From assembly GCF_963506605.1 (NCBI RefSeq), contig NC_083277.1:16678001-16742000 (forward strand): a stretch of 64,000 bases of DNA, written 5' to 3'. Positions 12,888 through 64,000 of this stretch are shown in pieces. Source of the DNA: Zootoca vivipara. Its lineage: Eukaryota. Position numbers and translations under genes: made by a program. Within the stretch, counting starts at the first letter, position 1, and each line of letters opens with the position of its first letter. A model generated the notes under the pieces. The model did no database searches and had not been told where the DNA came from. It saw only the letters and a program-made list of their open reading frames with translations.

Positions 12888-13611
12888 AACTCCCATGAGC
12901 CTCAGCCAGTATGGCCAATGGTCAGAGTTTATGGGACCTGTAATTCAGCAACACCTGCAGGGCCATAGGTATTCTACCCCTGGACTAAACAGCTTGGAAC
13001 TGGATTCCTGACAGTCTGCTTCCATACGTACCTGCCCAATTCTTAAAGCTTTCTTCAGTGGCTCCATTCAATGTCCCTACTTTCGAAGGTGGGTGGCAAG
13101 CCAACAAGAGACTGTATTTTTAGTCGGGGTGCCTCATGTCTGGAACTCTCTCCCTTGTTTATAGTTGCCAATTCCCTTGGAGATTTTACATGAACATCTG
13201 GAAAAGTGGATTTCTTCTCCCCTTTAGCTATCGACGGGATATTTTCCTAACTTTTGTTACTCAACCAACCTGCTGACTCTTTTATCTGCATAAGGCCCCA
13301 TCTGCAATATACATTGGAAGCAGGATCGTACCACTTTATACAGTCATGGCTTCCCCCAGGGAACCCTGGGAAATGTTGTCTATTAAGGGTTGTGAGAGGA
13401 GACCCCATATTCCCTCACGGGGCTACACTTCTCAAAGTCATTTAACAATCCTGCTCCCTTCCTGGGGAACTCTGGGAAGTGTAGCGCTGAGAGGGGAATA
13501 GGGGTCTCTTAGTAACTCTAAATGTCCTTAGCAAACTACATTGCCCAGGATTCTTTGGGGAGAAGCCATGGCTGTTTGAAGTGGTACCAGATACTGCATT
13601 ACATGTCTTGT

Positions 13612-13969
13612 GTAAAGGTAAAGGTAAAGGGACCCCTGACCATTAGGTCCAGTCATGGAAGACTCTGGCCTGCGAGCCTCATCTTGCTTTATTGGCCGAG
13701 GGAGCTGGCGTACAGCTTCCGGGTCATGTGGCCAGCATGACTAAGCCGCTTCTGGCGCACCAGAGCAGTGCACGGAAACGCCGTTTACCTTCCCACTGTA
13801 GTGGTACCTATTTATCTACTTGCACTTTGATGTGCTTTCAAACTGCTAGGTTGGCAGGAGCTGGGACCAAGCAACGGGAGCTCACCCTGTTGCAGGGATT
13901 CGAACCGCCGACCTTCTGATCGGCAAGCCCTAGGCTCTGTGGTTTAACCCACAGCACCACCCGTGTCCC
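13612..13969 (-). mobile_element. Sauria/Squam1 SINE
   Basis: tRNA-like head (GGTTCGAATCC B box on minus), (ACCTTT)n tail, approximately 15-bp imperfect TSD. Confidence 0.9.
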
Positions 13970-14394
13970 TACATTCCTTGTGTAGATGGGGCCTAATCAA
14001 GGGTGGGGAATAGGTGGCCCTCCAGATGTTGCTAGACTTGAGTCATTCCTGACTACTGACTATGCTGGCTGGGGGTAACGGGTCACAGGTTGTCCATCCT
14101 TGGTTTAAATCTTGGGGTGTTTTATATCAACGATTTCATATTTTTATAATGTTTGACATAGTGGAAATCCTGGTGACTGAGAGGGTAACAATATTTTCAA
14201 TCAAGAAAATGACGATTTCTCCATATGGGGAAAAAAGAAAACTGGAGGAAAGATGTTCTTTGCGCTACACTCCCATTTCAGTTCGCAATATATTATGATT
14301 ATTTCACATATATAACCTGCCCGTCCTCTGCAAGGTGTGCACAGGTTCTAGTGATACAGTAACCCATCTTCCATAAGGACTGGAGGGTGTAGGA

Positions 14395-14646
14395 CAGGGG
14401 TCAGCAAACTTTTTCAGCAGGGGGCCGGTCCACTGTCCCTCAGACCTTGTGGGGGGGCCGGACTATATTTTGAAAAAAAATACTGAACGAATTCCTATGC
14501 CCCACAAATAACCCAGAGATGCATTTTAAATAAAAGGACACATTCTACTCATGTAAAAACAGGCTGATTCCTGGACCGTCCGTGGGCCGGATTTAGAAGG
14601 CGATTGGGCTGCATCCGGCCCCCGGGCCTTAGTTTGGGGACCCCTG
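14395..14646. mobile_element. hAT MITE
   Basis: TIRs CAGGGGTC...GACCCCTG, 8-bp TSD GTGTAGGA. Confidence 0.9.
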
Positions 14647-15107
14647 GTGTAGGAGCTGTTATGTTGACTTACCCGGTAGTTGTATTCAACTAAATCTTCC
14701 TCAGGGTAGGCCCGTTGAAGTTTAAAGAACCTTAGTTAGTAATTTCCATTCATTTCAGCAGGTCTTCTTTGTGTGAAACTAACTGCCAATGTAAAAATAG
14801 TATCGAGTCCCTTGAATCAAATGGGACAGTGTGGTGGCATAAACTGAAGTAAATATAAACCACAATCCAACCAAAATTAACCACTTTTAATCCCCATTAT
14901 TTCCAGGGACAGATGCTTAAATTGCTCCCCAATGAAATCTTATCAAATGGATCTTTAAAACGCTTAATTTTGTCTGGACAAAATTGTATTCCACCCAAAA
15001 AATTTTGCTGGTTCCATTTGACTACTTTCTCCCAACTCCCAACAAGATCCTTTCTTTCTCTCCATCCTTACTGATACTTACCTGTGAAAAAAAGCCTTTC
15101 TCTTAAT

Positions 15108-15160
15108 TCACAGCTCCTCCCTTTCATATTGCTGTGTGGATAAGACATCTTCTTGGATTT
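15108..15160 (-). CDS. Cholinesterase-like gene A, terminal coding exon (EIQEDVLSTQQYEREEL*)
   Basis: Polypyrimidine tract plus AG at 15162/15161, phase 1 matching the preceding exon, TGA at 15110-15108, followed by a canonical donor CAG|GTAAGT at 15082/15081. Confidence 0.65.
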
Positions 15161-16289: not shown

Positions 16290-16453
16290 CTGGCTTTGAT
16301 GCCCCTGATGGGAGTGTCTTCCAAAAACTGCACTGCTGAGCCGGCGATGGCTCCATCACACGGGGTGGCTCCGTGTTGAGGACAAAGAAGTTCTGCTGTG
16401 CCGGGTCATAGATGGGCCATTTTGTTCCATTGACATTGGAAGGAGTCGGGTTG
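16290..16453 (-). CDS. Cholinesterase-like gene A, coding exon 2 (164 nt)
   Basis: ttcctactcAG acceptor; translates (G)NPTPSNVNGTKWPIYDPAQQNFFVLNTEPPRVMEPSPAQQCSFWKTLPSGASKP; donor CAG|GTGAGT. Homologous to the BCHE/ACHE NP..WP.Y..C.FW exon. Confidence 0.92.
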
Positions 16454-20414: not shown

Positions 20415-21910
20415 CCGCTTCGGGCAAACTCTGCCCAGTACCGCATGACACGGGGGATGAGCTCCAACTCTGCCTTGGTGTGGTTTTCCTTGGTTCCTTT
20501 CAAGAGCGTCAAAGTTCCGAAAACATACGGGACCTCCGCTCCGTGGATGGCCCCCAGCCATTCAGGCCAAACAGAGCCAGTGCTGCGGTGGCGGAAAGTA
20601 TAGACATACACAGGGCTTCCAGCCTCTGTCACCGCTTTGGCGACATCCACGAGTGGGCACACGAAAAAGTAATCGCCGCAGGCTTTTGCCATGGCTGAAC
20701 GGTACCTTGCTGGGCCTTCGGGTTCTGCCTGACTGTACCTCTCAGCTGCAGCTTTGATGAAGTCACTGGTTGCGTCGCGGACGGTGATCTGCAGCCCCTT
20801 CAACAGTTGCTCCCGGGTCAAGAGGCAGTCTTTGGTCGTGTTCAAAAAAGGGCTTGCATATACGACGAAGGCAGACCCTTCATCGGAGGTGGTACCGATC
20901 ACGATAGGCTTAGCCGTGAAGTTCTTGGATTCTAGAAGCTTCCGCGGATCATCGGGGAGGAAATCCCCATCTGTTGTCGGTGCAAATGGTAGATTCAGAA
21001 CCACCGTGGGGTCCACAACAAGGAACTGGGCGGTTTGGAACTCTGATGCGTTCTTTCCCTGCAAGCAACTCACCAAAGCAGGGACCTCTTCTTGAGCACA
21101 GCCCATCTTCTTGGCCAGCTTCTTACTTCTTCTTCTGGCCTCCTCAGGATTCAGCCAAGCCCAGACTGCAACGGAAGCTCCACTCTCTAGCACAGCACGA
21201 TGGAAAAGAGGCTGGCTCCCTGGCGAGAGGAGGTGAAACGCAACAGAGGCTGCTCCAGCACTCACGCCAAAAATGGTTATCCGAGTAGGGTCTCCACCAA
21301 AGGCAGCTGCATTATGCTTCACCCAAGACATGGCTAGCTGCTGGTCCATCAGGCCCATGTTCCCTGGGACAGCTGGTGGCAACGAAAGGAAGCCTAGAGG
21401 CCCTAGGCGGTAATTCATGGAGACCACAATGACATTCTCGGCAGCAGCTAGGAATGCTGCGTCGTACAGCACCAGGGAGCTTGTGCCAGCAAAATAGGCC
21501 CCACCATAGATCCAGACAAGGACAGCGGCTGGCTTGGAGGGCCGAGGATGGGGCACCCAGACGTTGAGGTAGAGGCAGTCCTCTGAGAGGGGCGTGTTGG
21601 CAGTCCATGTTTCGGCATCCGGAGGTCCGGAAATAACTACCTGGGGGCAGGAATTGCTGAAGTTGGTGGCCTCCAAGACTTGGCTCCATGGCTGACGAGG
21701 AACGGGCTTCTGGAAGCGCAGTTTGCCTACAGGGGGCTCAGCGTAGGGGATGCCTAAAAAGGCCGTGACATTGCCAGAGCCAGACGGGAGACGCTTTCCC
21801 TGGACAGAGCCACTGCTGGTCACCACCACTAAGTCATCTTCAGCGGCAGAGCTGGATCCCACCAGCAAAAGGATGAGGCACAAGATCCAAGGAAGGAGAT
21901 GGGGGGCCAT
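20415..21910 (-). CDS. Cholinesterase-like carboxylesterase gene A, large coding exon 1
   Basis: Signal peptide, FLGIPYAEPP, SEDCLYLNVW, GGAY oxyanion loop, GVSAG nucleophile, DEG acid, GAIHGAE His. Acceptor 8 nt before ATG (exon start 21918); phase-2 donor GG|GTAAGA. Confidence 0.95.
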
Positions 21911-37952: not shown

Positions 37953-39406
37953 ATGTTGTGCCGAGTATTTTCATGCCTGTTTCTGCTGGGCCTCAGTTTC
38001 GCCTCTGAGGAAGATGTTCTGGTGATCACAAGCAGCGGTCCCATACGGGGCAAACGCCTCATGACAGATTCTGGTGCGGTGACAGCTTTCTTGGGAATCC
38101 CCTATGCTGAACCTCCTGTGGGGAAGCTACGATTTCAAAAACCATGTCCTCACCAGCCTTGGAACCACACCCTGAACGCCACCAGCTTTGGCAATACCTG
38201 CCACCAAGGGAGTATAGAACTTTCCGGCTATCGTGCGGAACAAAACTCAGAATCCACCTTCTCTGAAGACTGCCTCTTCCTCAATGTCTGGGTGCCTCAT
38301 CCCCGACCCTCTTCGCCAGCTCGTGCCTTCGTCTGGATCCATGGAGGGGGTTTTCTCAATGGGTCTGGCTCCATCGATAGGAGCTTCCTAGCTGCCACTG
38401 AGAATATCATCGTGGCTTCTATGAACTACCGCCTAGGTGCCTTGGGATTCCTCTCGCTACCCCCAGAGGCTCCGGGGAATGCTGGTTTGTGGGACCAACA
38501 CCTGGCGTTGAGTTGGCTGAGGGAAAACATGGCCGCCTTTGGAGGGCATCCAACTTGGCTCACCCTGGGCGGTCAAAGTGCTGGGGCTGCCTCGGTTGGT
38601 TTCCACCTTCTCTCGCCGGCAAGTCAGGCTCTATTTGACCAGGCCACTTTACAAAGCGGCGCTGCGATTTCCCCCTGGGCTTGGGTGAGGCCCGAGAAGG
38701 CTGCCATCAGAGGGCGAACCCTGGGCCGGATTTTAGGCTGCGCCGAGGATGACGACAGGGCTGTAGTCCGATGCCTGCAGAAGAAGGGCCCAGGGGAGAT
38801 GATGAAGAACTTGCCTATCCTCAGTCATAAAACTTTGGTGGGTTTCCCTTTTGTGCCCACGACCGATGGGGAGTTCCTTCCGGATGCCCCTCGGAAACTT
38901 CTGGAAGCTGGGCGATTCTTGGAGAAACCCTTCCTGACCGGCTTCACCCATGATGAAGGCACCCTCTTCCTCTCAGGAAATGCCCCTGGTTTCAGCCTAT
39001 ACAACGACAGCTTGATTAACCACGAGCAACTCTTGGAGGGCCTCCGTTTGATGGTCCCAGAGGCACCTGAAGTTATCATCAAAACCGCAGCAACCGTCTA
39101 CAGTCAGGAGGAGCACGGGGAAGAACGATATCGAAACGCCTTGATCAAAGCTTCTGGAGACTACCTTTTCTTGTGCCCTGTGGCTGTGGTGGCCACCCGT
39201 ATGGCAGAAGCCCAAAGCCTGGCATTTGCCTACTCCTTCACTCACCAGCCCTCCTTTGTAACCGTCTCCGACTGGGTTGGAGTGCCCCATTGCTCCGAGC
39301 TGCCCTTTCTGTTTGGTGACCCACTATCTACGTCGGGATACACAGAGGCAGAGGGGACCCTGAGCCAAAGGGTTATGAGCTACTGGGGACAGTTTGTAAG
39401 GACCGG
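37953..39406 (+). CDS. Cholinesterase-like carboxylesterase gene B, large coding exon 1
   Basis: Signal peptide, GIPYAEPP, SEDCLFLNVW, HGGGF, GQSAG, DEG, GVPHCSE. Acceptor at 37944 (ATG 8 nt into the exon); phase-2 donor GG|GTAAGT. Candidate 5'UTR exon donor at 35695. Confidence 0.95.
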
Positions 39407-40823
39407 GTAAGTGATTCCTCCAGTCTTTAGCACTGCCAACAGAAGAGCTGGTCCTTGGTCTCTCTGAATAGCAAGCTCCCCATTTGGGTATTCTTTCTCT
39501 TCCCCATTTTGAGAACAAGACTTCGTACGCTCTGAACATTCAAAGCACCCCCCCAAGGGATCCTGGGAACTGCAAATTACTCTTCATTTAAGCTACAATT
39601 ATCAGCACCCTGAACAAACTAGAGTTCCCAGGATTCTTTGGGGCTGGGGAGGAGATGTGTTCCAAATGTAGAGTGTGCATGCAGCCCAAATTTCTTGGCT
39701 TTGCTTATCATAATCAGCGATGGCCTGAACTGGCAGAACAGCAACAATCTTTGCTTTGCCCCCTCCACATTTTATACACCACTTTTCCAGGCAAAGCCTA
39801 CGCAAAGTGGCTTAAAAAAATAAAGAAGTGTGTGGGGGGAATCAACATTTCTTCTAAAAACAGAAAATAAGGAGGAAGGAAGGGTCATCGTTTTATTTAC
39901 TGTATTTATTTTTTGAAAAAGCTCTGGGCTTGCTATTGTGAGTTGTTGTATTGAGAGTATTGCAGGATCGTAAACGGGTTTGGTTATGTTCATGTTATCT
40001 TATCAAGGCCAGGAAAAGCAAACCAGCAAAAAGTTAAACAAGGCCTTGCTTTGAGCAACAGTGCACGTTGATTTAGGCATTTCCCCCGGTCCGTTTACTT
40101 TCATTCATTTGCATACTTACCGCTTACATCGTTATGTGGCTTAATGCTTTGGAAAGCTGCACTCTTGCAAAGCACTTTGAAACGTATTATCACGCACCAC
40201 CCCAGTCTCTGAGAATCCAGGGGTTCCCGTGCTTACCTAGGGTTCAGTTTCCTTGGACTGAAGGTCAGCGGCTGCTGTGGCATTTTTAGGATAAAGTTAA
40301 ACCTATACAACCCGAGCACAAGATGGAGGGGCTCGCAGCATTCACCCCTCAAAAGACCGTGCTTCTCCATTCTTTGCAGGCACACAGCAATTACGACTGT
40401 GTGGTGGACTCTAGATACATATAAAAAACGCTGTGAAAATACCATTTTTAAAAAGGCGTCTTGAAAAATGCATTTGCCTAAAGCTCACCATTGCCGTCTA
40501 GTGTCACATTTGTATAATGCGCTTAAAACGCACTTAAAACATTATATTTGCAGCTGTGTAGCTGTAGCTGAGTCCTGTGTCTCCAGCTTCCAGCCTGCTT
40601 CCAACTTCCTCAAACACAACTCCAGCTACCGTAATCCTACCCGGCAGCTGAGTGACAGGGGGTTGAGGAAAGACACACCCATTTGCACTTTGTCACAGAG
40701 CAACTTCCATGGTTGTGCTGATTGTGGCGCTTAACTAGTGGAGTTTTATGACATTTCCTCACTTGATTTTTTATCTCAGTCTTATTCCTTTTACTGATTG
40801 GTGACGTTTGCTTCCCCTCACAG

Positions 40824-40963
40824 GTCTCCTGGTGATGGAGAATGGCCTGTCTACACAGGAGAGAATTTCTTCCGCATTACCACAGAGCCAGCTCAGGGCG
40901 AGGAGGTGTCGCCCACCCGTTACTGTGGCTTCTGGGTGTGGCTAGCCACGGAAGGATTTAAGG
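40824..40963 (+). CDS. Gene B coding exon 2
   Basis: cttcccctcacAG acceptor; SPGDGEWPVYTGENFFRITTEP...RYCGFW; the 3' boundary uses a weak donor G|GTCGGG. Confidence 0.8.
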
Positions 40964-41259
40964 GTCGGGAAGAGTACAATTTCGGGCTGGCGGGTGGTGG
41001 GAGTTGGAAGATACCACAGCCCAGTCAGATAACCCTCCTGTTCAATGTAATTTGGGAGCATCTGTCTGTCTTGCCCCACCCATGCCAGCCAGTCACTTGA
41101 TGGGCACCAACACACTCCATGATACTGTGCATGAAGTGTTGGGTGCAAGTGCTGCTTTGGGGTGCTGTACCTCATCCATTTGCCACCCCTGTCTCATTTC
41201 CCGATCTAAAGAGCATTCTTCTGGAAAAGTTATACAGCAATCTGTTTAATGCCAAGGAT

Positions 41260-42270
41260 GCGTTTCCGAGCACAATTCAAAGTGTTGGCACTGACCTTTA
41301 AACCCCTAAATGGCCTCGGCTCAGTATACCTGAAGGAGCGTCTCCACCCCCATCGTCCAGCCCGGATACTGAGGTTCTCCTCCAAGGGTCTATTTGGGGG
41401 TTCCCCCACTGTGAGAAGTGAGTTTACAGGGAACCAGGCAGAGGGCCTTCTCGGTAGTGGTGCCCACCCTGTGAAATGCCATCCCAGCAGGTGTCAAGGA
41501 AATAAACAACTACAGTGGTACCTCAGGTTACAGACCATAGCTGCCAAGTCTCCCGTTTTTCATAGGGAACCCCCCCCCCTATTTTAAACTGTTTCCTGCT
41601 GGCAGCCCAGATTGGGAAAAATCCCGTAAATCTCCCAGATTTCCTACCTGCCAGGGAGGCTCCATTTTGGGTCCTGGCGCTGCCCTATTTCTGGTGCCCA
41701 GACATGGGTAGCGCGGCACTGGAAGTCGCTTCTACACATGTCCGATGCCACTCCGCCCATGCCTGGGCACCGAAAATCGGGTAGAGCGGCACCGGAAGTT
41801 GCTTCTACGCCTGTCCGGACATGCATAGAAGCGACTTCTGGTGCCGTGCTACTGCTGATCCCGCATTTTTCAGTGGGAGACTTGGCAGCTATGTTACAGA
41901 CGCTTCAGGTTACAGACTCCGCTAACCCAGAAATAGTACCTTGGGTTAAGAACTTTGCTTCAGGATGAGAACAGAAATCATGCTCTGGTGGCGGCAGCGG
42001 GAGGCCCCATTAGCTAAAGTGGTACCTCAGGTTAAGAACAGTTTCAGGTTAAGAACGGACCTCCAGAACGAATTAAGTTCTTAACCCGAGGTACCACTGT
42101 GCTGTATTTGACTTTTAGAAGACACCTGAAGGCATCGCTGTTCAGGGAAGTTTTTGGTGGTTGATGTTTTATTGTGTTTTTAATATTTTTCTGGGAGCCG
42201 CCCAGAGTGGCTGGGGGAACCCAGTCAGATGGGCGGCATATAAATATCATCATCATCATCATCATCATTT
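41260..42270 (+). mobile_element. L2 fragment containing a Tc1 MITE (41513-42099), which contains a hAT MITE (41536-41893)
   Basis: L2 is continuous either side of the insertion; Tc1 TIR CAGTGGTACCTC; inner TIR CATAGCTGCCAAG with TSD TTACAGAC. Confidence 0.85.
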
Positions 42271-42738
42271 CTGCCTGCCTGCATATGCAGATGGTGCTTT
42301 CTAAGGTCACCTCCTATTGGGGCAGACTTCCTGACATTGTAGGTCTATGTACACAGCCTAACACCAACCCTCTAGTCCTCCAAGCAGAGAGGTAAGAAAT
42401 GGGTTTTCACCAGACGCAAGAAGCCTGTTAGTGTTGTTATGCTTCCAAGGGGAGGGTGTGTGTGTCCATAACTAAGGTGCCACCACAGAAAAGGCTCTCA
42501 TTTTTATCCCTGCAGAATGAGCAACATTCACTGGTGCAGGCACAAGCGGAGCCAGCCCCCTCCTATCAATCTCAGATGGTTGGTATGAGGAGAGGAGGCC
42601 CACAATTTTCCATTAGTTTCAGAATGGTTCAATACCAGGAATAATTGACCCTGCAATGCAAATGAGAATACAATTTGCAACCCCAGCATTTTTCCTACTG
42701 CAGCTTCCTTTACCTAAACATGTCTTCCTGTTTTCCAG

Positions 42739-42779
42739 ACTCTGACCTGATGGCTGAAGAAAGAGACTCTGATTGGTAA
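42739..42779 (+). CDS. Gene B candidate terminal coding exon (DSDLMAEERDSDW*)
   Basis: Strong acceptor tcttcctgttttccAG, phase 1, short acidic tail like those of paralogs A and C. Confidence 0.5.
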
Positions 42780-43607
42780 AAGTATCTGGAAATGGATGGT
42801 GCAGATTTCACTTTAAAATGCAACTATCCTCCTTCTTCTACTATCCCGAATCTCAGCCAAGCCATGTGGATTCATGCCTGTCGATTATACTTTGTGTGTG
42901 ACTATCTTGAGGATCTCACTTTTCACAGAAAAACAAGAGAGAGAAAGAAGTGTTTTCAGACGCATTAAGTCATTAACAACAGCTTTAAAATATGATTTCA
43001 GCCCTTGCTCTTAAGATTCCACAGCCACAAGCAAATAAAAGGAGCCAGCAGCAACTTTTGAGAACTTTTGGAGTCTGGTGATTATTTTCTTTTTATTATC
43101 CCTCCACCCACAATTTTTCCAGTTAAAAAGAAAAAAAAAAGTAAATTGTGAAGCGAAGTTACAATTCCTGCACATACTCTTCCTGTTTCTCGGTTCCTCT
43201 TTCAGACAGAGACTCCAAAACAAACAAACAATCCTCCATTTACAGGTAACATCTTCACTCCAATTCATGCAGGGGATTTCTCCTGCCCATCACTCACTCT
43301 CTGCAAATACTTCTACCTCTTGCTTCCCTGTTCCTCAGCTTGGATTTCCTCCTGATCTCCGCTGGGGGACTTTCCCTCTTGCTTCACATGACGCCTTTTG
43401 ACCATTCAGCCAATCAGGGCTGTATCAGAATTCTTCTTGCACCCAGGCACTCCCTGGTCCCCCCTGAGCAATTCCTGCCAAGCCTCCCTCAGCTGCTTCA
43501 CTCTCTTGAATCAGATAGAACCCTATTTCCTCCCATCAGTTCTCGCCGTGTGCCATGGAGTTACAAGAAGTGAGGCTTCCTGAAGTTCCATCATTGTCTT
43601 TCCCAGA

Positions 43608-47998: not shown

Positions 47999-49497
47999 AT
48001 GCCTGGTCTCCTCTCTTCACTCCGCTACGTTCTCATTCTCCTCCTCCTCTTTTCACCTGCCTCTGGCTCTGCCCCTGGCGATGACACCGTGGTGGTCACC
48101 AAAAGTGGCCCCATCAAGGGCAAGCATGTTCCAGCTGGCTCTGGCTCTGTGACGGCCTACTTGGGTATCCCCTATGCTGAGCCCCCTGTGGGGAAATTGC
48201 GTTTCCAGAAGCCCCTTGCACATCAGCCGTGGAGCCAAGTCTTGGAAGCCACCAGCTATGGCAACTCTTGCCCCCACTTTGTTATTTCTGGCATCCCTGA
48301 TGCAGCCATGTGGGCAGCCAATACACCACAGTCAGAAGACTGCCTCTTTCTCAACACCTGGGTTCCCCACCCGCGTCCCTCTACACCAACCCCTGTCCTT
48401 GTTTTCATTCACGGAGGGGGATTTTTCACTGGGACATCTTCCCTGGACTTGTACAAAGGGGCATCCTTAGCTTCTACTGAGAGAGTGATAGTTGTCAGCA
48501 TGAATTATCGCCTGGGGATGCTAGGCTTCCTGACCATGCCACCAGCAGCTCCAGGAAACTTGGGCTTGCTAGACCAACAGCTGGCTCTGAGATGGGTCAA
48601 TGAGAATGCCGCCGCCTTTGGAGGAGATCCGACTCGGGTGACCATATTTGGCCACAGTGCCGGAGCAGCGTCAGTGGGTTTCCACCTCCTTTCACCAGGC
48701 AGCCAGACCCTTTTTGCCCAAGCTGTGATTCAGAGTGGATCTCCCAATGCCATCTGGGCTTGGATGAGTCCTGAGGAAGCCAAGCAAAAATCCCTTGCTA
48801 TCACCCAGCTGCTGGGCTGTGCTGATGGCGACGATAGCGCTGTGATGAGCTGCCTACAGGCGAAAGATGCCACAGAATTCTCTCCACAGGAAATACTCTT
48901 CCTTGAGAAAAGCAAATATCTTATCGATCTCCCTGTGATACCAACAACAGATGGAGATTTCCTGCCTGACGACCCTCAGAAGCTTCTGGAGTCTGGGAAC
49001 ATCAAGATCAAGCCAATCCTCATTGGTTTTACCTCCGACGAAGGGTCCACCTTTCTGCCGTTTAGTTTTCCTGGCATCGAGCGCCACCACTTCACCCAGG
49101 AGCTACTACTGAAAGGGATACGGATGGCAATACGAAATGCGAAGGAAGAAGTTGTCCAGGCTGTGGCGCAGGAGTACAGCAGCAAGGAAGGCCAGGATCC
49201 AGCTCGGTACCACAGCGCCTTGTCACAGTCCTTTGGCGATTACTTCTTTGCGTGCCCAATGGATGAATTCGCTAAGAAGCTGGAAGAAGCTGGAAGCCCT
49301 GTGTACACTTACTACTTCAAGCACCACACCTCAGGCTCTGTTTGGCCTGAGTGGATTGGCGCACCCCACGGCGCTGAGCTGCCTTACTTGTTTGGAACCC
49401 TCGAGACAGCTTTGGCCATCAATCAAACTTACACAGAAGCTGAGGCTGATCTGAGCCGCAGGGTGATGCGATACTGGGCAGAGTTTTCCAGAAGTGG
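47999..49497 (+). CDS. Cholinesterase-like carboxylesterase gene C, large coding exon 1
   Basis: Signal peptide, GIPYAEPP, SEDCLFLN, HGGGF, GHSAG, DEG, GAPHGAE. Exon starts 47991 (AG|CTGCTGCAATG, identical to gene A); phase-2 donor GG|GTAAGG. Candidate 5'UTR donor at 46079. Confidence 0.95.
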
Positions 49498-49699
49498 GTA
49501 AGGCATTACCTTTTCCTCTCTTGTGCTTCACCTTTATACAGAAGGCAAGCCCTTTCAACCCTTAAAGCTACCTTCCCCAACCTGATACCCTCCAATATGT
49601 TTTTGACTGCCATTCCTATTATGCCTATTGAACATGGAGCTGGTGGGAATTGTAACTGAGAACATTTGGAGATCACCAGGTTTGGGAAGTGTACAATGA

Positions 49700-50380
49700 G
49701 ATCATAGAATCATAGAATTGTAGGGTTGGAAGCAACCCCCTGCAATGCAGGAATCTCAGCTAAAGTATCCATGACAGATGGCCATCCAACCTCCAAGGAA
49801 AGAGAGACCAGAACCTCCCGAGCAGAGATGTTGTGTGTGGTTGTGTAGCTTGCTATCATCTCTCCTCTCAGTCTCCTCTTTTCTAGGCTAAACATACCCA
49901 GCTCCTTCAACCGGTCCTCATAAGATTTGGCTTCCTAACCCTTGATCATCTTGGTTGCCCTCCTCTGCACACACCCCAGCTTCTTAAATTGTGGCACCCA
50001 GAATTGGACACAGTATCCCAGGTGTGGTCTGACTAAGATACTATTGGCACTATTTCTTCCCTTGAGCGGGACGCTATACTTCTGTTTTTGTAGCCTAGAA
50101 TAGCATTAGCCTTTTTTTGTGGGCTGCTGTTGACTCATGTTAAGCTTGCGGTCCACTAAGACCTCTAGATCCTTTTCGCATGCACTGCTACCGGTAGTAA
50201 GCCAGGTGTCCTGCATCTTATATTTGCACATCTGGTTCTTCCTGCCTAAGTGCAGAACCTTACATTTGTCCCTGTTGAACTTGGGCCCAGTTCTCCAACC
50301 TGTCAAGGTCATTCTGAATTCTGATCATGTCTTCTGTGGCATTAGCTAACCCTCCCAGTTTGGTGTCATCTGCAAATCCG
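49700..50380 (-). mobile_element. Decayed CR1 LINE
   Basis: KELGMFSLEKRRLRG, FNRDKCKVLHLG, EKDLEVLVDRKLNMSQQ. Confidence 0.85.
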
Positions 50381-50567
50381 ACTGTTCCTGTGAATATCTG
50401 GCCTTCAGAATTCTCCAGCTCTCACTGGCTCTGTTTCGCTCCTCAAGTGGTTTTTTTGCCTGACTGGGATATATCCCCAAACTCTGATAATGCCTTTTGC
50501 CTGGATGGAAGATGGAGAGCAGTATATTAGTGTTTAGAGCTATATATTTGTTTTACATCCTCTGCAG

Positions 50568-50713
50568 GAAACCAACGGGGTCAGCTGCCAGTGAGGTAGA
50601 GTGGCCGCTCTATAATGCCACACAGCAAAACTTCTTCTACCTAAGCACTGAGCCAACCCAGGTTGTGGACAGGTCACCTGTGCAACACTGCACTTTCTTC
50701 AATACACTGACAA
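50568..50713 (+). CDS. Gene C coding exon 2
   Basis: ctctgcAG acceptor; KPTGSAASEVEWPLYNATQQNFFYLSTEP...QHCTFFNTLT; donor A|GTAAGC (phase 1). Confidence 0.92.
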
Positions 50714-51232
50714 GTAAGCTCTGTTCTTTGCCTTGCAGTATAGGTGTGTGTGGACTGCGGTGGGGGCTAAGACCTCATAAGACAAATGCTTCTAATTCCT
50801 CAGTACATAACACCTGTACTGTAACTGACATCACCTACACCTGAAAGGAGATGCTACTATCCCTGGACTTCTAGAACAGGGATTGCCAATGTGATGACCA
50901 TGGGTGCAATGGCGTGGGTGCCCATGGGTGTACTCTCTACCCCTCCATCCTTTGGCCATAAGATGGTAAGTGAGGTTACCTTTTGCCCTGTGAAAAGCCA
51001 AGAACTGAAGGAGGAAGCTGGAAGATTGAGACTCTTTCCCACTTCCTGTCTCACTTCTATGAGAAGAAACCAGAGCTGGGGTAGTGGCCATGGCACTCAC
51101 TCAAAAATCCAGATGTGGATATATGCCTAAATACCTAGGTCAGTGACCCTTGTTCCAGAGTCTTCAACGTCTCATTTCCAGATTCAAATTTCCCTCCGGT
51201 TTTCTTTCTTTCTGATTCCCCTTCTTCTACAG

Positions 51233-51300
51233 ACAAATTGAAAGAGGATTCTGCTGCTTCACACAAGGAGGAGGACGAGACAAAGGAATCCACAACTTAA
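51233..51300 (+). CDS. Gene C terminal coding exon (NKLKEDSAASHKEEDETKESTT*)
   Basis: Long polypyrimidine tract plus tacAG, phase 1 in frame, TAA at 51298-51300. Confidence 0.75.
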
Positions 51301-62926: not shown

Positions 62927-64000
62927 ATGCTTCATTTTTGGACTTTACCCTCCTCCTTCTGTCTCCTGCTCTTCCTCCTGCCTTCCAGCTCTGCCTCTGA
63001 TGATGATGATACTGTGGTGGTCACCAGCAGTGGTCCCATTAAAGGCAAAATACTCCCAGCTGGCACTGGCTCTGTGACCGCCTACCTCGGCATCCCCTAT
63101 GCTGAGCCCCCCGTGGGAAAACTGCGCTTCCAGAAGCCAGTTCCACATCAGCCATGGAGCCAGGCATTGGAGGCCACCACCTTTGGCAACTCTTGCCATC
63201 AGTTAAACATCGAACAAATGCCATTTTCAGAGCTATATGATGCTAACACACCACTTTCAGAGGACTGCCTCTTCCTCAACATCTGGGTGCCCCACCCACG
63301 GCCAGTCACACCAGTGCCCATCCTCCTATGGATCTATGGCGGGGGTTTTATCATGGGCACAGCCTCTCTGGATATGTACAATGGGGCCTTGTTAGCAGCT
63401 ACAGAGAATGTCATTGTGGCCTCCATGAATTACCGCCTGGGGAGTCTGGGTTTCCTGTACCTGCCCCCAGATGCCCCAGGAAACGTTGGCTTGTGGGACC
63501 AACATCTGGCTCTGAAGTGGGTGAGTGAGAACGCAGCTGTGTTTGGTGGTGATGCAGCTCGGATAACTCTCCTTGGCGAAAGTGCTGGAGGAGCCGCAGT
63601 TGGTTTCCACCTGCTTTCACCGGCAAGTCAACCCCTTTTTGCCCGTGCTGTGCTTCAGAGTGGGGTTCCCAATGCTCCCTGGGGTTGGAAGAATCCTGAA
63701 AATGCCCTAAGAGATTCAGTGATAGTGAGTCGCCTAATGGGGTGTCATGAAGCTAACCACAGTGCTATGGTAAGCTGCCTACAGGGGATGGAAATGAACA
63801 GCAAAACGTTTGCTGCCTTGCAAGCTTTCTTATCATTGACAACGGATGGGGAGTTCCTCCCAGATGATCCCCCAAAGAGGCTGGAGATTGGTCTTGTTCA
63901 CGGCAAACCCATTCTCGCTGGTGTCACTGCTGATGAAGGGTCAACTACGGTATTTTTTATGTATCCTAACATGACATTGAAGGATGGAAAACTGACCTGG
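62927..64000 (+). CDS. Cholinesterase-like carboxylesterase gene D, large coding exon 1 (truncated by the window end; 358 open codons)
   Basis: Manual translation MLHFWTLPSSFCLLLFLLPSSSASDDDDTVVVTSSGPIKG...GIPYAEPP...SEDCLFLNIW...YGGGF...GESAG...DEG; GCCATG Kozak context after a ttcAG acceptor. Candidate 5'UTR donor at 61245. Confidence 0.95.
   Translation, partial: MLHFWTLPSSFCLLLFLLPSSSASDDDDTVVVTSSGPIKGKILPAGTGSVTAYLGIPYAEPPVGKLRFQKPVPHQPWSQALEATTFGNSCHQLNIEQMPFSELYDANTPLSEDCLFLNIWVPHPRPVTPVPILLWIYGGGFIMGTASLDMYNGALLAATENVIVASMNYRLGSLGFLYLPPDAPGNVGLWDQHLALKWVSENAAVFGGDAARITLLGESAGGAAVGFHLLSPASQPLFARAVLQSGVPNAPWGWKNPENALRDSVIVSRLMGCHEANHSAMVSCLQGMEMNSKTFAALQAFLSLTTDGEFLPDDPPKRLEIGLVHGKPILAGVTADEGSTTVFFMYPNMTLKDGKLTW

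What the first reader, a model, noticed from the sequence alone, without database searches (positions are those of the whole stretch)
15082..15160. Gene A appears to end in an ER-retention-like signal (REEL) with an intron just after the stop
Seen: a hidden 79-nt exon gives ...EIQEDVLSTQQYEREEL* in the correct phase, then CAG|GTAAGT 26 nt after the stop. Known: KDEL-like xxEL termini retain microsomal carboxylesterases (HIEL/HTEL) in the ER, cholinesterases are secreted or anchored, and stops less than 50 nt before the last junction escape NMD. Inference: a cholinesterase-type gene has convergently become an ER-lumenal esterase while its paralogs remain secreted.
Basis: partly seen in the sequence, partly recalled or inferred. 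Interest (0 to 1): 0.7.

Follow-up and report, generated by a model that had tools for sequence, protein, structure and literature searches.

The report
Lizard cholinesterase-like enzyme with ER-retrieval tag
One member of a lizard cluster of cholinesterase-like genes ends in a short tag (REEL), kept in related form by its counterparts in 8 of 10 lizard genera examined, that likely holds the enzyme inside the cell's endoplasmic reticulum like a liver detoxifying esterase, while the eight neighbouring copies lack the tag and are probably secreted.

Summary
The 79-nt exon (15160-15082, minus strand) is spliced exactly as proposed: RNA contigs join 16290>15160 and 15082>12164. It is not hidden, because the spliced 570-aa product is identical to RefSeq XP_034963146.2 (Zootoca vivipara). 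The intron after the stop is an ordinary 3'UTR intron, 26 nt downstream.

The new part is comparative. Gene A belongs to a well-supported squamate clade within the reptile cholinesterase-like family. [KR]xEL-stop ends 20 of 52 clade records (8 of 10 genera) and 0 of 164 other family records; the eight paralogs in this genome also lack it. The tail upstream drifts and takes deletions. AREEL has been shown to interact with human KDELR1 as strongly as AKDEL.

Best reading: a KDEL-receptor retrieval tag gained once, early in squamates, on an existing acidic tail exon. That would give an ER-lumen serine esterase that works like CES1/CES2 but descends from the cholinesterase line. Several choline-site residues (D70, E197, Y440) are changed.

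Against: localisation is untested, many gecko copies have degraded tags, and Podarcis has annotated tag-less isoforms. Verdict: new variant of a known kind, moderate interest.

The parts
20415..21910 (-). Gene A large coding exon: signal peptide and esterase domain; triad S217, E344, H456
16290..16453 (-). Gene A second coding exon (end of the esterase fold, Cys540); donor in phase 1
15082..15160 (-). 79-nt tail exon: 17-residue acidic tail ending REEL, stop, 26 nt of UTR; further in-frame acceptors at 15151 and 15148 match the starts of Podarcis isoforms
15108..15122 (-). REEL codons and TGA stop (predicted KDEL-receptor retrieval signal)
12165..15081 (-). 3'UTR intron, 2917 nt, GT-AG, starting 26 nt after the stop
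   Evidence: joint 12164/15082
11765..12164 (-). Non-coding last exon; contigs reach 11963 (a repeat follows); AATAAA signals at 11779-11770; terminal status inferred
37953..42780 (+). Paralog B (tail ends DSDW, no tag); coordinates approximate
47999..51300 (+). Paralog C (tail ends ESTT, no tag); coordinates approximate
62927..64000 (+). Start of paralog D (continues beyond the window; tail ends ATQT, no tag); start approximate

Best explanation
Gene A encodes a signal-peptide-bearing cholinesterase-like serine esterase whose spliced tail exon ends in REEL, a tag that likely binds the KDEL receptor in the Golgi and returns the enzyme to the ER lumen, where it would act as a broad-specificity, CES1/CES2-like esterase while its tag-less neighbours are probably secreted. 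Shown: exon use, protein sequence, intact triad, no hydrophobic anchor, clade-restricted conservation of [KR]xEL-stop. Inferred: receptor binding, ER residence, substrate range, and a single gain on the stem of a squamate clade by placing Leu-stop after a K-x-E that several paralog tails carry at the same position.
For: Junctions in RNA contigs and identity with RefSeq XP_034963146.2. Clade A has SH-like support 100 and SH-aLRT 100 on a tree built with the last 35 residues of each full protein removed. [KRH]xEL-stop ends 20 of 52 clade-A records and 0 of 164 others; 8 of 10 genera with complete tails have at least one such copy. In 12 hand-picked clade-A tails aligned on the C-terminus, -2 is E in 12, -4 is K/R in 12 and -1 is L in 10, while the commonest residue at -5 and at -6 occurs in only 4 of 12. 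The motif survives deletions just upstream (Zootoca versus Podarcis; Hemicordylus P0135). None of the 8 paralogs in this genome has the tag, and all 8 have signal-like N-termini. Raykhel 2007 (PMC2140024, parts 2-4 of 7 read): AREEL gives a BiFC signal with KDELR1 not different from AKDEL, all KXEL variants gave signal, and any residue but Pro works at -3. No hydrophobic segment at the C-terminus; residues 549-570 have pLDDT under 50, which fits a free tail. Three KDEL-receptor genes are present. D70, E197, G117 and Y440 (BChE numbering) are replaced and the acyl pocket is aliphatic.
Against: No localisation, secretion or activity data exist here. 26 of the 46 clade-A records with a complete tail lack the tag, and Heteronotia (0 of 5) and Gekko (0 of 2) have none, mostly KPEM/KQEP with Pro at -3 or -1. 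Podarcis records include 4 ending PGI and 3 intron read-through forms. One X6 contig seems one letter short just upstream of the exon, which would shift the frame if real (inferred). Records are not independent (isoforms, close species), so the Fisher p overstates the case. K-x-E is present in several paralog tails, so only two steps were needed. Raykhel found that many proteins stay in the ER without their motif, and Gerondopoulos 2021 (PMC8248988, passages) cautions that BiFC inflates affinity. W82 is kept, so some choline-ester activity is possible.
Confidence: 0.72

Rival explanations
1. The tag is real but leaky or switchable: the tail exon, made internal by the 3'UTR intron, is included for an ER form and bypassed for a secreted form, so gene A makes both.
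For: Tag-less isoforms are annotated in three Podarcis species (PGI in 4 records, read-through in 3). The stop lies in a non-terminal exon. Gecko duplicates carry weak or broken versions.
Against: In this species the X1 and X2 contigs run unbroken through the exon at depth 73 and 57, and no skip joint was among those listed (59 joints not shown). No acceptor giving GI-stop lies in either intron. Contigs drop rare variants.
Confidence: 0.15
2. REEL is an incidental end of an acidic, lysine-rich tail; the protein is secreted like its paralogs and the clade-wide EL is inherited drift.
For: Paralog tails have K-x-E at the same position. The tag is lost in many gecko copies, and the whole clade was not found in anguimorph, iguanian, snake or Tiliqua records.
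Against: Leu and the stop position are held across geckos, a cordylid, an amphisbaenian and lacertids while the tail upstream changes, whereas paralog stops wander. The motif is one with tested receptor interaction, so retrieval would follow even if it arose by chance.
Confidence: 0.09
3. The xxEL end is an old remnant (for example of the AChE/BChE T-peptide end, or ancestral to the whole cholinesterase-like family) that the paralogs lost, not a convergent gain.
For: Three turtle isoform records end PKEL and an alligator record ends IRDL. AChE T peptides end in xDL/xEL-like tetrapeptides (recalled, not confirmed).
Against: The sister clade, clade B, the tuatara, alligator and all turtle records lack [KR]xEL (0 of 164), so ancestry needs several more losses than a single gain. 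The tail has none of the aromatic residues of a T peptide (compare P0229 and P0235). The turtle PKEL has Pro at -4 and occurs in minor isoforms.
Confidence: 0.04

Closest known systems
Mammalian microsomal carboxylesterases CES1/CES2 with HXEL tags, and secreted rodent Ces1c (PMC5818367, passages read)
   Same: Signal peptide, soluble alpha/beta-hydrolase esterase, C-terminal xxEL; a tandem cluster in which tagged and untagged copies coexist.
   Different: Gene A is in the cholinesterase line (best solved relatives are BChE, E about 1e-160), has one 1.5-kb coding exon rather than many small ones, and uses [KR]xEL, not HXEL. This lizard has its own CES genes ending HGEL, HTEL, RTEL, RTEL, so gene A adds to them rather than replacing them.
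Butyrylcholinesterase / acetylcholinesterase
   Same: Fold, triad, W82, W231, W430, six Cys at the disulfide positions, and the layout of one large exon, one short exon and one tail exon; the large exon aligns end to end with those of this genome's BCHE and ACHE.
   Different: No T (tetramer) or H (GPI) peptide; D70, E197, G117, Y440 replaced; separate BCHE (C5) and ACHE (C13) genes exist at 48% and 45% identity.
Reptile 'cholinesterase-like / acetylcholinesterase-like' tandem family (RefSeq names; amplification in lepidosaurs was noted by Chatonnet et al. 2017, recalled, paper not held)
   Same: Member; 9 genes in a roughly 120-kb cluster beside phostensin.
   Different: Only clade A carries [KR]xEL; no description of this tag was found in the searches made.
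Human ER-lumen proteins with KDEL variants (REEL, KEEL, KAEL; PMC2140024)
   Same: Same tetrapeptides at a free C-terminus.
   Different: Tested only with human receptors and reporter proteins.

Membership tests
KDEL-receptor-retrieved ER-lumen proteins | N-terminal signal peptide, no membrane anchor | tested here: met
   Most hydrophobic 19-mers start at residues 1-5; C-terminal 60 residues are hydrophilic; 7 N-glycan sequons. Hydropathy only, no signal-peptide predictor.
KDEL-receptor-retrieved ER-lumen proteins | Functional-type tetrapeptide at the true C-terminus of the spliced product | tested here: met
   Junctions, RefSeq identity, AREEL comparable to AKDEL with KDELR1
KDEL-receptor-retrieved ER-lumen proteins | Motif conserved independently of the upstream tail | tested here: met
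   20 of 52 versus 0 of 164 records; 8 of 10 genera; losses in gecko copies
KDEL-receptor-retrieved ER-lumen proteins | Steady-state ER residence that depends on the motif | not testable with these tools
   Needs cell experiments
Cholinesterases (AChE/BChE proper) | Ser-Glu-His triad and cholinesterase fold | tested here: met
   S217, E344, H456; PF00135 E 1e-154; model pLDDT 89
Cholinesterases (AChE/BChE proper) | Choline-site and gorge residues W82, D70, E197, Y440, G116-G117 | tested here: not met
   W82 kept; D70 to Ile, E197 to Val, Y440 to Ala, G117 to Ala; D70 and Y440 are mostly replaced across clade A. D70 lies near a small gap, so its column is less sure.
Cholinesterases (AChE/BChE proper) | T or H C-terminal peptide; orthology to ACHE or BCHE | tested here: not met
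   Acidic 17-residue tail; separate ACHE and BCHE genes fall outside the family in the trees
Cholinesterases (AChE/BChE proper) | Preferential hydrolysis of choline esters, physostigmine sensitivity | not testable with these tools
   Needs an enzyme assay
CES1/CES2 carboxylesterases | Orthology and multi-exon gene structure | tested here: not met
   True CES genes lie on C6 and C1 as many short exons; gene A is closer to BChE. No tree with CES was built.
CES1/CES2 carboxylesterases | HXEL retrieval signal | tested here: not met
   REEL/KxEL instead; same receptor class
Reptile cholinesterase-like tandem family | Groups with RefSeq cholinesterase-like proteins of squamates and turtles, apart from ACHE/BCHE; tandem array | tested here: met

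The most novel reading that the evidence does not exclude
Squamates re-invented, from a cholinesterase-type ancestor, the retained-versus-secreted division of labour of mammalian carboxylesterase clusters: clade A gained an ER tag once near the root of squamates, the tag exon can be bypassed to release a secreted form, and gecko duplicates tuned or dropped the tag copy by copy.
Probability: 0.25. Interest if true: 0.58.

Novelty: new variant of a known kind. Interest (0 to 1): 0.42.

Why it matters
Vertebrate cholinesterase-line enzymes are thought of as secreted or surface-anchored. An ER-resident one would be a clear case of convergence on the microsomal carboxylesterase design, and it gives a first functional handle on an unstudied reptile gene cluster. 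It could affect how lizard esterase assays are read in pesticide ecotoxicology, where tissue 'cholinesterase' and 'carboxylesterase' activities are assigned by analogy to mammals. It is cheaply testable. The mechanism itself (KDEL retrieval; gain and loss of the tag within esterase clusters) is well known, which caps the interest.

Tried and rejected
'Hidden exon': rejected, the RefSeq model already contains it. 'Gene A replaces lost CES genes': rejected, four CES tail exons ending xxEL are in the genome. Raw reads X21 and X22 (about 6% of each run read) showed no depth in the bin holding the exon, so they say nothing on splicing; tissue unknown. No holder was on record as RNA; X1, X2, X5 and X6 are guessed RNA, and their GT-AG joins support that. 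X7 and X10 (other organisms) gave no usable junction in the rows shown. Search for an acceptor giving the Podarcis GI-stop end: none within gene A. Pfam on five short ORFs found nothing. The 50%-cluster representative search returned mostly unnamed distant esterases; 5 of those printed (500-760 aa) end in xxEL, but it gave no named outgroup closer than turtles and alligator. A complex prediction with a KDEL receptor was prepared and not run: only stand-in receptors from other species were complete, and a pass would follow from solved KDELR-peptide structures. Literature: no paper describing this tag or this clade turned up in searches (listings and abstract starts only). The library lacks most subscription papers, including the 2017 cholinesterase-amplification paper, so absence from print is not established. 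Supplementary tables of Raykhel 2007 (per-motif localisation values) were not read. Earlier findings of the scan: none returned.

Full report
Setting. The window holds a phostensin gene followed by the start of a tandem array of cholinesterase-like genes: gene A on the minus strand and B, C and D on the plus strand. The genome search shows 9 such genes within about 120 kb of contig C2, plus two single genes at 48% and 45% identity whose translations I read as BCHE and ACHE from their acyl-pocket and gorge residues. The spliced gene A product is letter for letter RefSeq XP_034963146.2 of Zootoca vivipara.

Observation. Gene A's coding exons are 21910-20415, 16453-16290 and 15160-15082. The third is 79 nt, entered in phase 1, and encodes a 17-residue tail ending REEL; the stop is at 15110-15108 and a CAG|GTAAGT donor follows 26 nt later. 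Contigs of runs X1 and X2 (one study, guessed RNA) join 16290>15160 and 15082>12164 as single records with no differences over these exons. X5 and X6, from two other studies, fit the same structure. For X5 this rests on bin-depth arithmetic. The X6 contig has 91 instead of 92 letters between its listed pieces, best read as a one-letter loss just before the donor at 16290, an error or an allele. Two raw-read runs did not cover the exon. The last exon begins at 12164 and has AATAAA signals near 11779; that it is terminal is inferred, since contigs stop at a repeat. With the stop 26 nt before the last junction the mRNA should escape NMD (recalled 50-55-nt rule).

Is the ending more than chance? 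In the window, 12 of 4289 six-frame stops follow such a motif. The stronger test is comparative. From two homolog searches and one cluster listing I had 216 cholinesterase-like records. A FastTree of 117 rows (107 of these records plus 10 genes of this genome) and an IQ-TREE of 51 rows built with the last 35 residues of each full protein removed both give gene A a clade with support 100. It contains lacertids, Rhineura, Hemicordylus and geckos; records not in the tree were assigned by best hit. [KRH]xEL-stop ends 20 of 52 clade-A records (20 of the 46 with a complete tail) and 0 of 164 others; the only other EL ends are 3 turtle isoforms ending PKEL. By genus, 8 of 10 have at least one tagged copy: Zootoca REEL, Podarcis KEEL, Rhineura KEEL, Hemicordylus KQEL/KEEL, Eublepharis KREL, Euleptes KQEL, Sphaerodactylus KQEL/KEEL, Paroedura KAEL; Heteronotia and Gekko have none. 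In 12 hand-picked tails aligned on the C-terminus, -4 is K/R in 12, -2 is E in 12 and -1 is L in 10, while the commonest residue at -5 and at -6 occurs in 4 of 12, and deletions occur just upstream without disturbing the end. The records are not independent, so I give no weight to the Fisher p-value. The eight paralogs of this genome end DSDW, ESTT, ATQT, ATQT, SGTV, SGTV, LGTG and ETRI (from genomic exons matched to annotated orthologs, not from RNA), and all have signal-like N-termini.

Origin. The tail exon is homologous across the squamate genes, and several paralog tails have K-x-E at the same position followed by further residues. The simplest history is one gain of Leu-stop on the stem of clade A, then losses in gecko duplicates; the 51-row tree needs 5 changes in all, and the count alone cannot tell gain from loss. 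Polarity rests on the absence of the tag from the sister clade, clade B, tuatara, turtles and alligator. Because geckos, a cordylid and lacertoids share it, the gain is near the root of squamates. No anguimorph, iguanian, snake or Tiliqua record fell in clade A although many of their paralogs were retrieved, which suggests loss but could be an annotation gap.

Would REEL work? Raykhel 2007 (PMC2140024; parts 2-4 of 7 read, supplements not) reports that AREEL gives a KDELR1 signal not different from AKDEL, that all KXEL variants gave signal, that Pro is not tolerated at -3, and that M and I are weaker at -1. The lacertid, amphisbaenian, cordylid and many gecko ends are thus of the working type, and the gecko KPEM/KPEI ends are predicted not to work. 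Gerondopoulos 2021 (PMC8248988, passages) describes capture of a free C-terminus with acidic -2/-3 and K/R/H at -4, gives -5 only a modulating role, and warns that BiFC can overstate binding. The protein has an N-terminal hydrophobic segment, no C-terminal anchor and 7 sequons; the model leaves residues 549-570 at low confidence, consistent with a free tail. Three KDEL-receptor genes are present. Binding and localisation were not tested.

What enzyme? The closest solved structures are BChE. The triad (S217, E344, H456) and W82, W231 and W430 are kept, the acyl pocket is aliphatic as in BChE, but D70, E197, G117 and Y440 are replaced and these sites vary across the clade (residue roles from PMC3045457 passages, and from recall for D70 and E197). 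This points to a broad-specificity esterase rather than a synaptic cholinesterase (inference). Mammalian CES1/CES2 use HXEL for ER retention and rodent Ces1c lacks it and is secreted (PMC5818367 passages); gene A would mirror that design. It does not replace CES: four CES tail exons in this genome end HGEL, HTEL, RTEL and RTEL.

Against and rivals. 26 of 46 complete clade-A records lack the tag. Podarcis annotation includes 4 records ending PGI and 3 intron read-through forms, so a secreted isoform may exist; in this species no skip joint was among those listed and no acceptor giving that end was found. Chance retention of an inherited ending and ancestral origin are less likely for the reasons given in the rival entries.

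Verdict. Observation confirmed; interpretation supported at sequence level and untested at cell level. Works like a microsomal carboxylesterase (about 0.72); it is not a member of CES1/CES2 nor an AChE or BChE proper. I found no description of this tag in searches, but the library misses most subscription papers. New variant of a known kind; interest 0.42.

Noticed in passing
window 3362-5251 (-): Phostensin (PF13916, PF13914; PPP1R18-like) lies next to the cluster; in mammals PPP1R18 is an MHC-region gene (recalled), so the cholinesterase-like array may sit in the lizard MHC region.
   Followed up: partly
L005 / G000:C2:16781093-16782526 and L006 / 16790136-16791569: Paralog F has no serine at the nucleophile elbow (GLGEG) and paralog G has a shifted elbow (GLGSG) in open frames: possibly catalytically dead esterase-fold proteins.
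   Followed up: partly
window 16305-16292 (-), run X6: One contig appears one letter short here (inferred). The shifted frame would read through the tail exon into the UTR exon and stop at another xxEL (YVEL); probably coincidence.
   Followed up: partly
window 15160, 15151, 15148 (-): Three in-frame AG acceptors at the start of the tail exon; Podarcis isoforms begin at the second and third, and all keep the tag.
   Followed up: yes
P0012, P0021, P0023-P0026, P0035, P0154 (gecko records): Clade A is amplified in geckos, with tails ranging from KAEL/KQEL to KPEM, KPEI, KQEP and KQEQ, a natural series for testing retrieval strength.
   Followed up: partly
family-wide: No clade-A record from anguimorphs, iguanians, snakes or Tiliqua among 216 records; possible loss in Toxicofera and skinks.
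   Followed up: partly
P0086, P0148, P0151 (turtles): Minor turtle isoforms of another cholinesterase-like clade end PKEL; perhaps an independent weak tag or chance.
   Followed up: no
L017-L020 (G000:C6 near 48.2 Mb; C1 near 110.7 Mb): Four true CES tail exons ending HGEL, HTEL, RTEL and RTEL; the C1 and one C6 exon are nearly identical, suggesting a recent duplication or an assembly duplicate.
   Followed up: no
window 37953-39407 (+): Paralog B is a separate, deep clade (sister to a tuatara record) that lacks W82 and Y128 and keeps GGQSAG across squamates.
   Followed up: no
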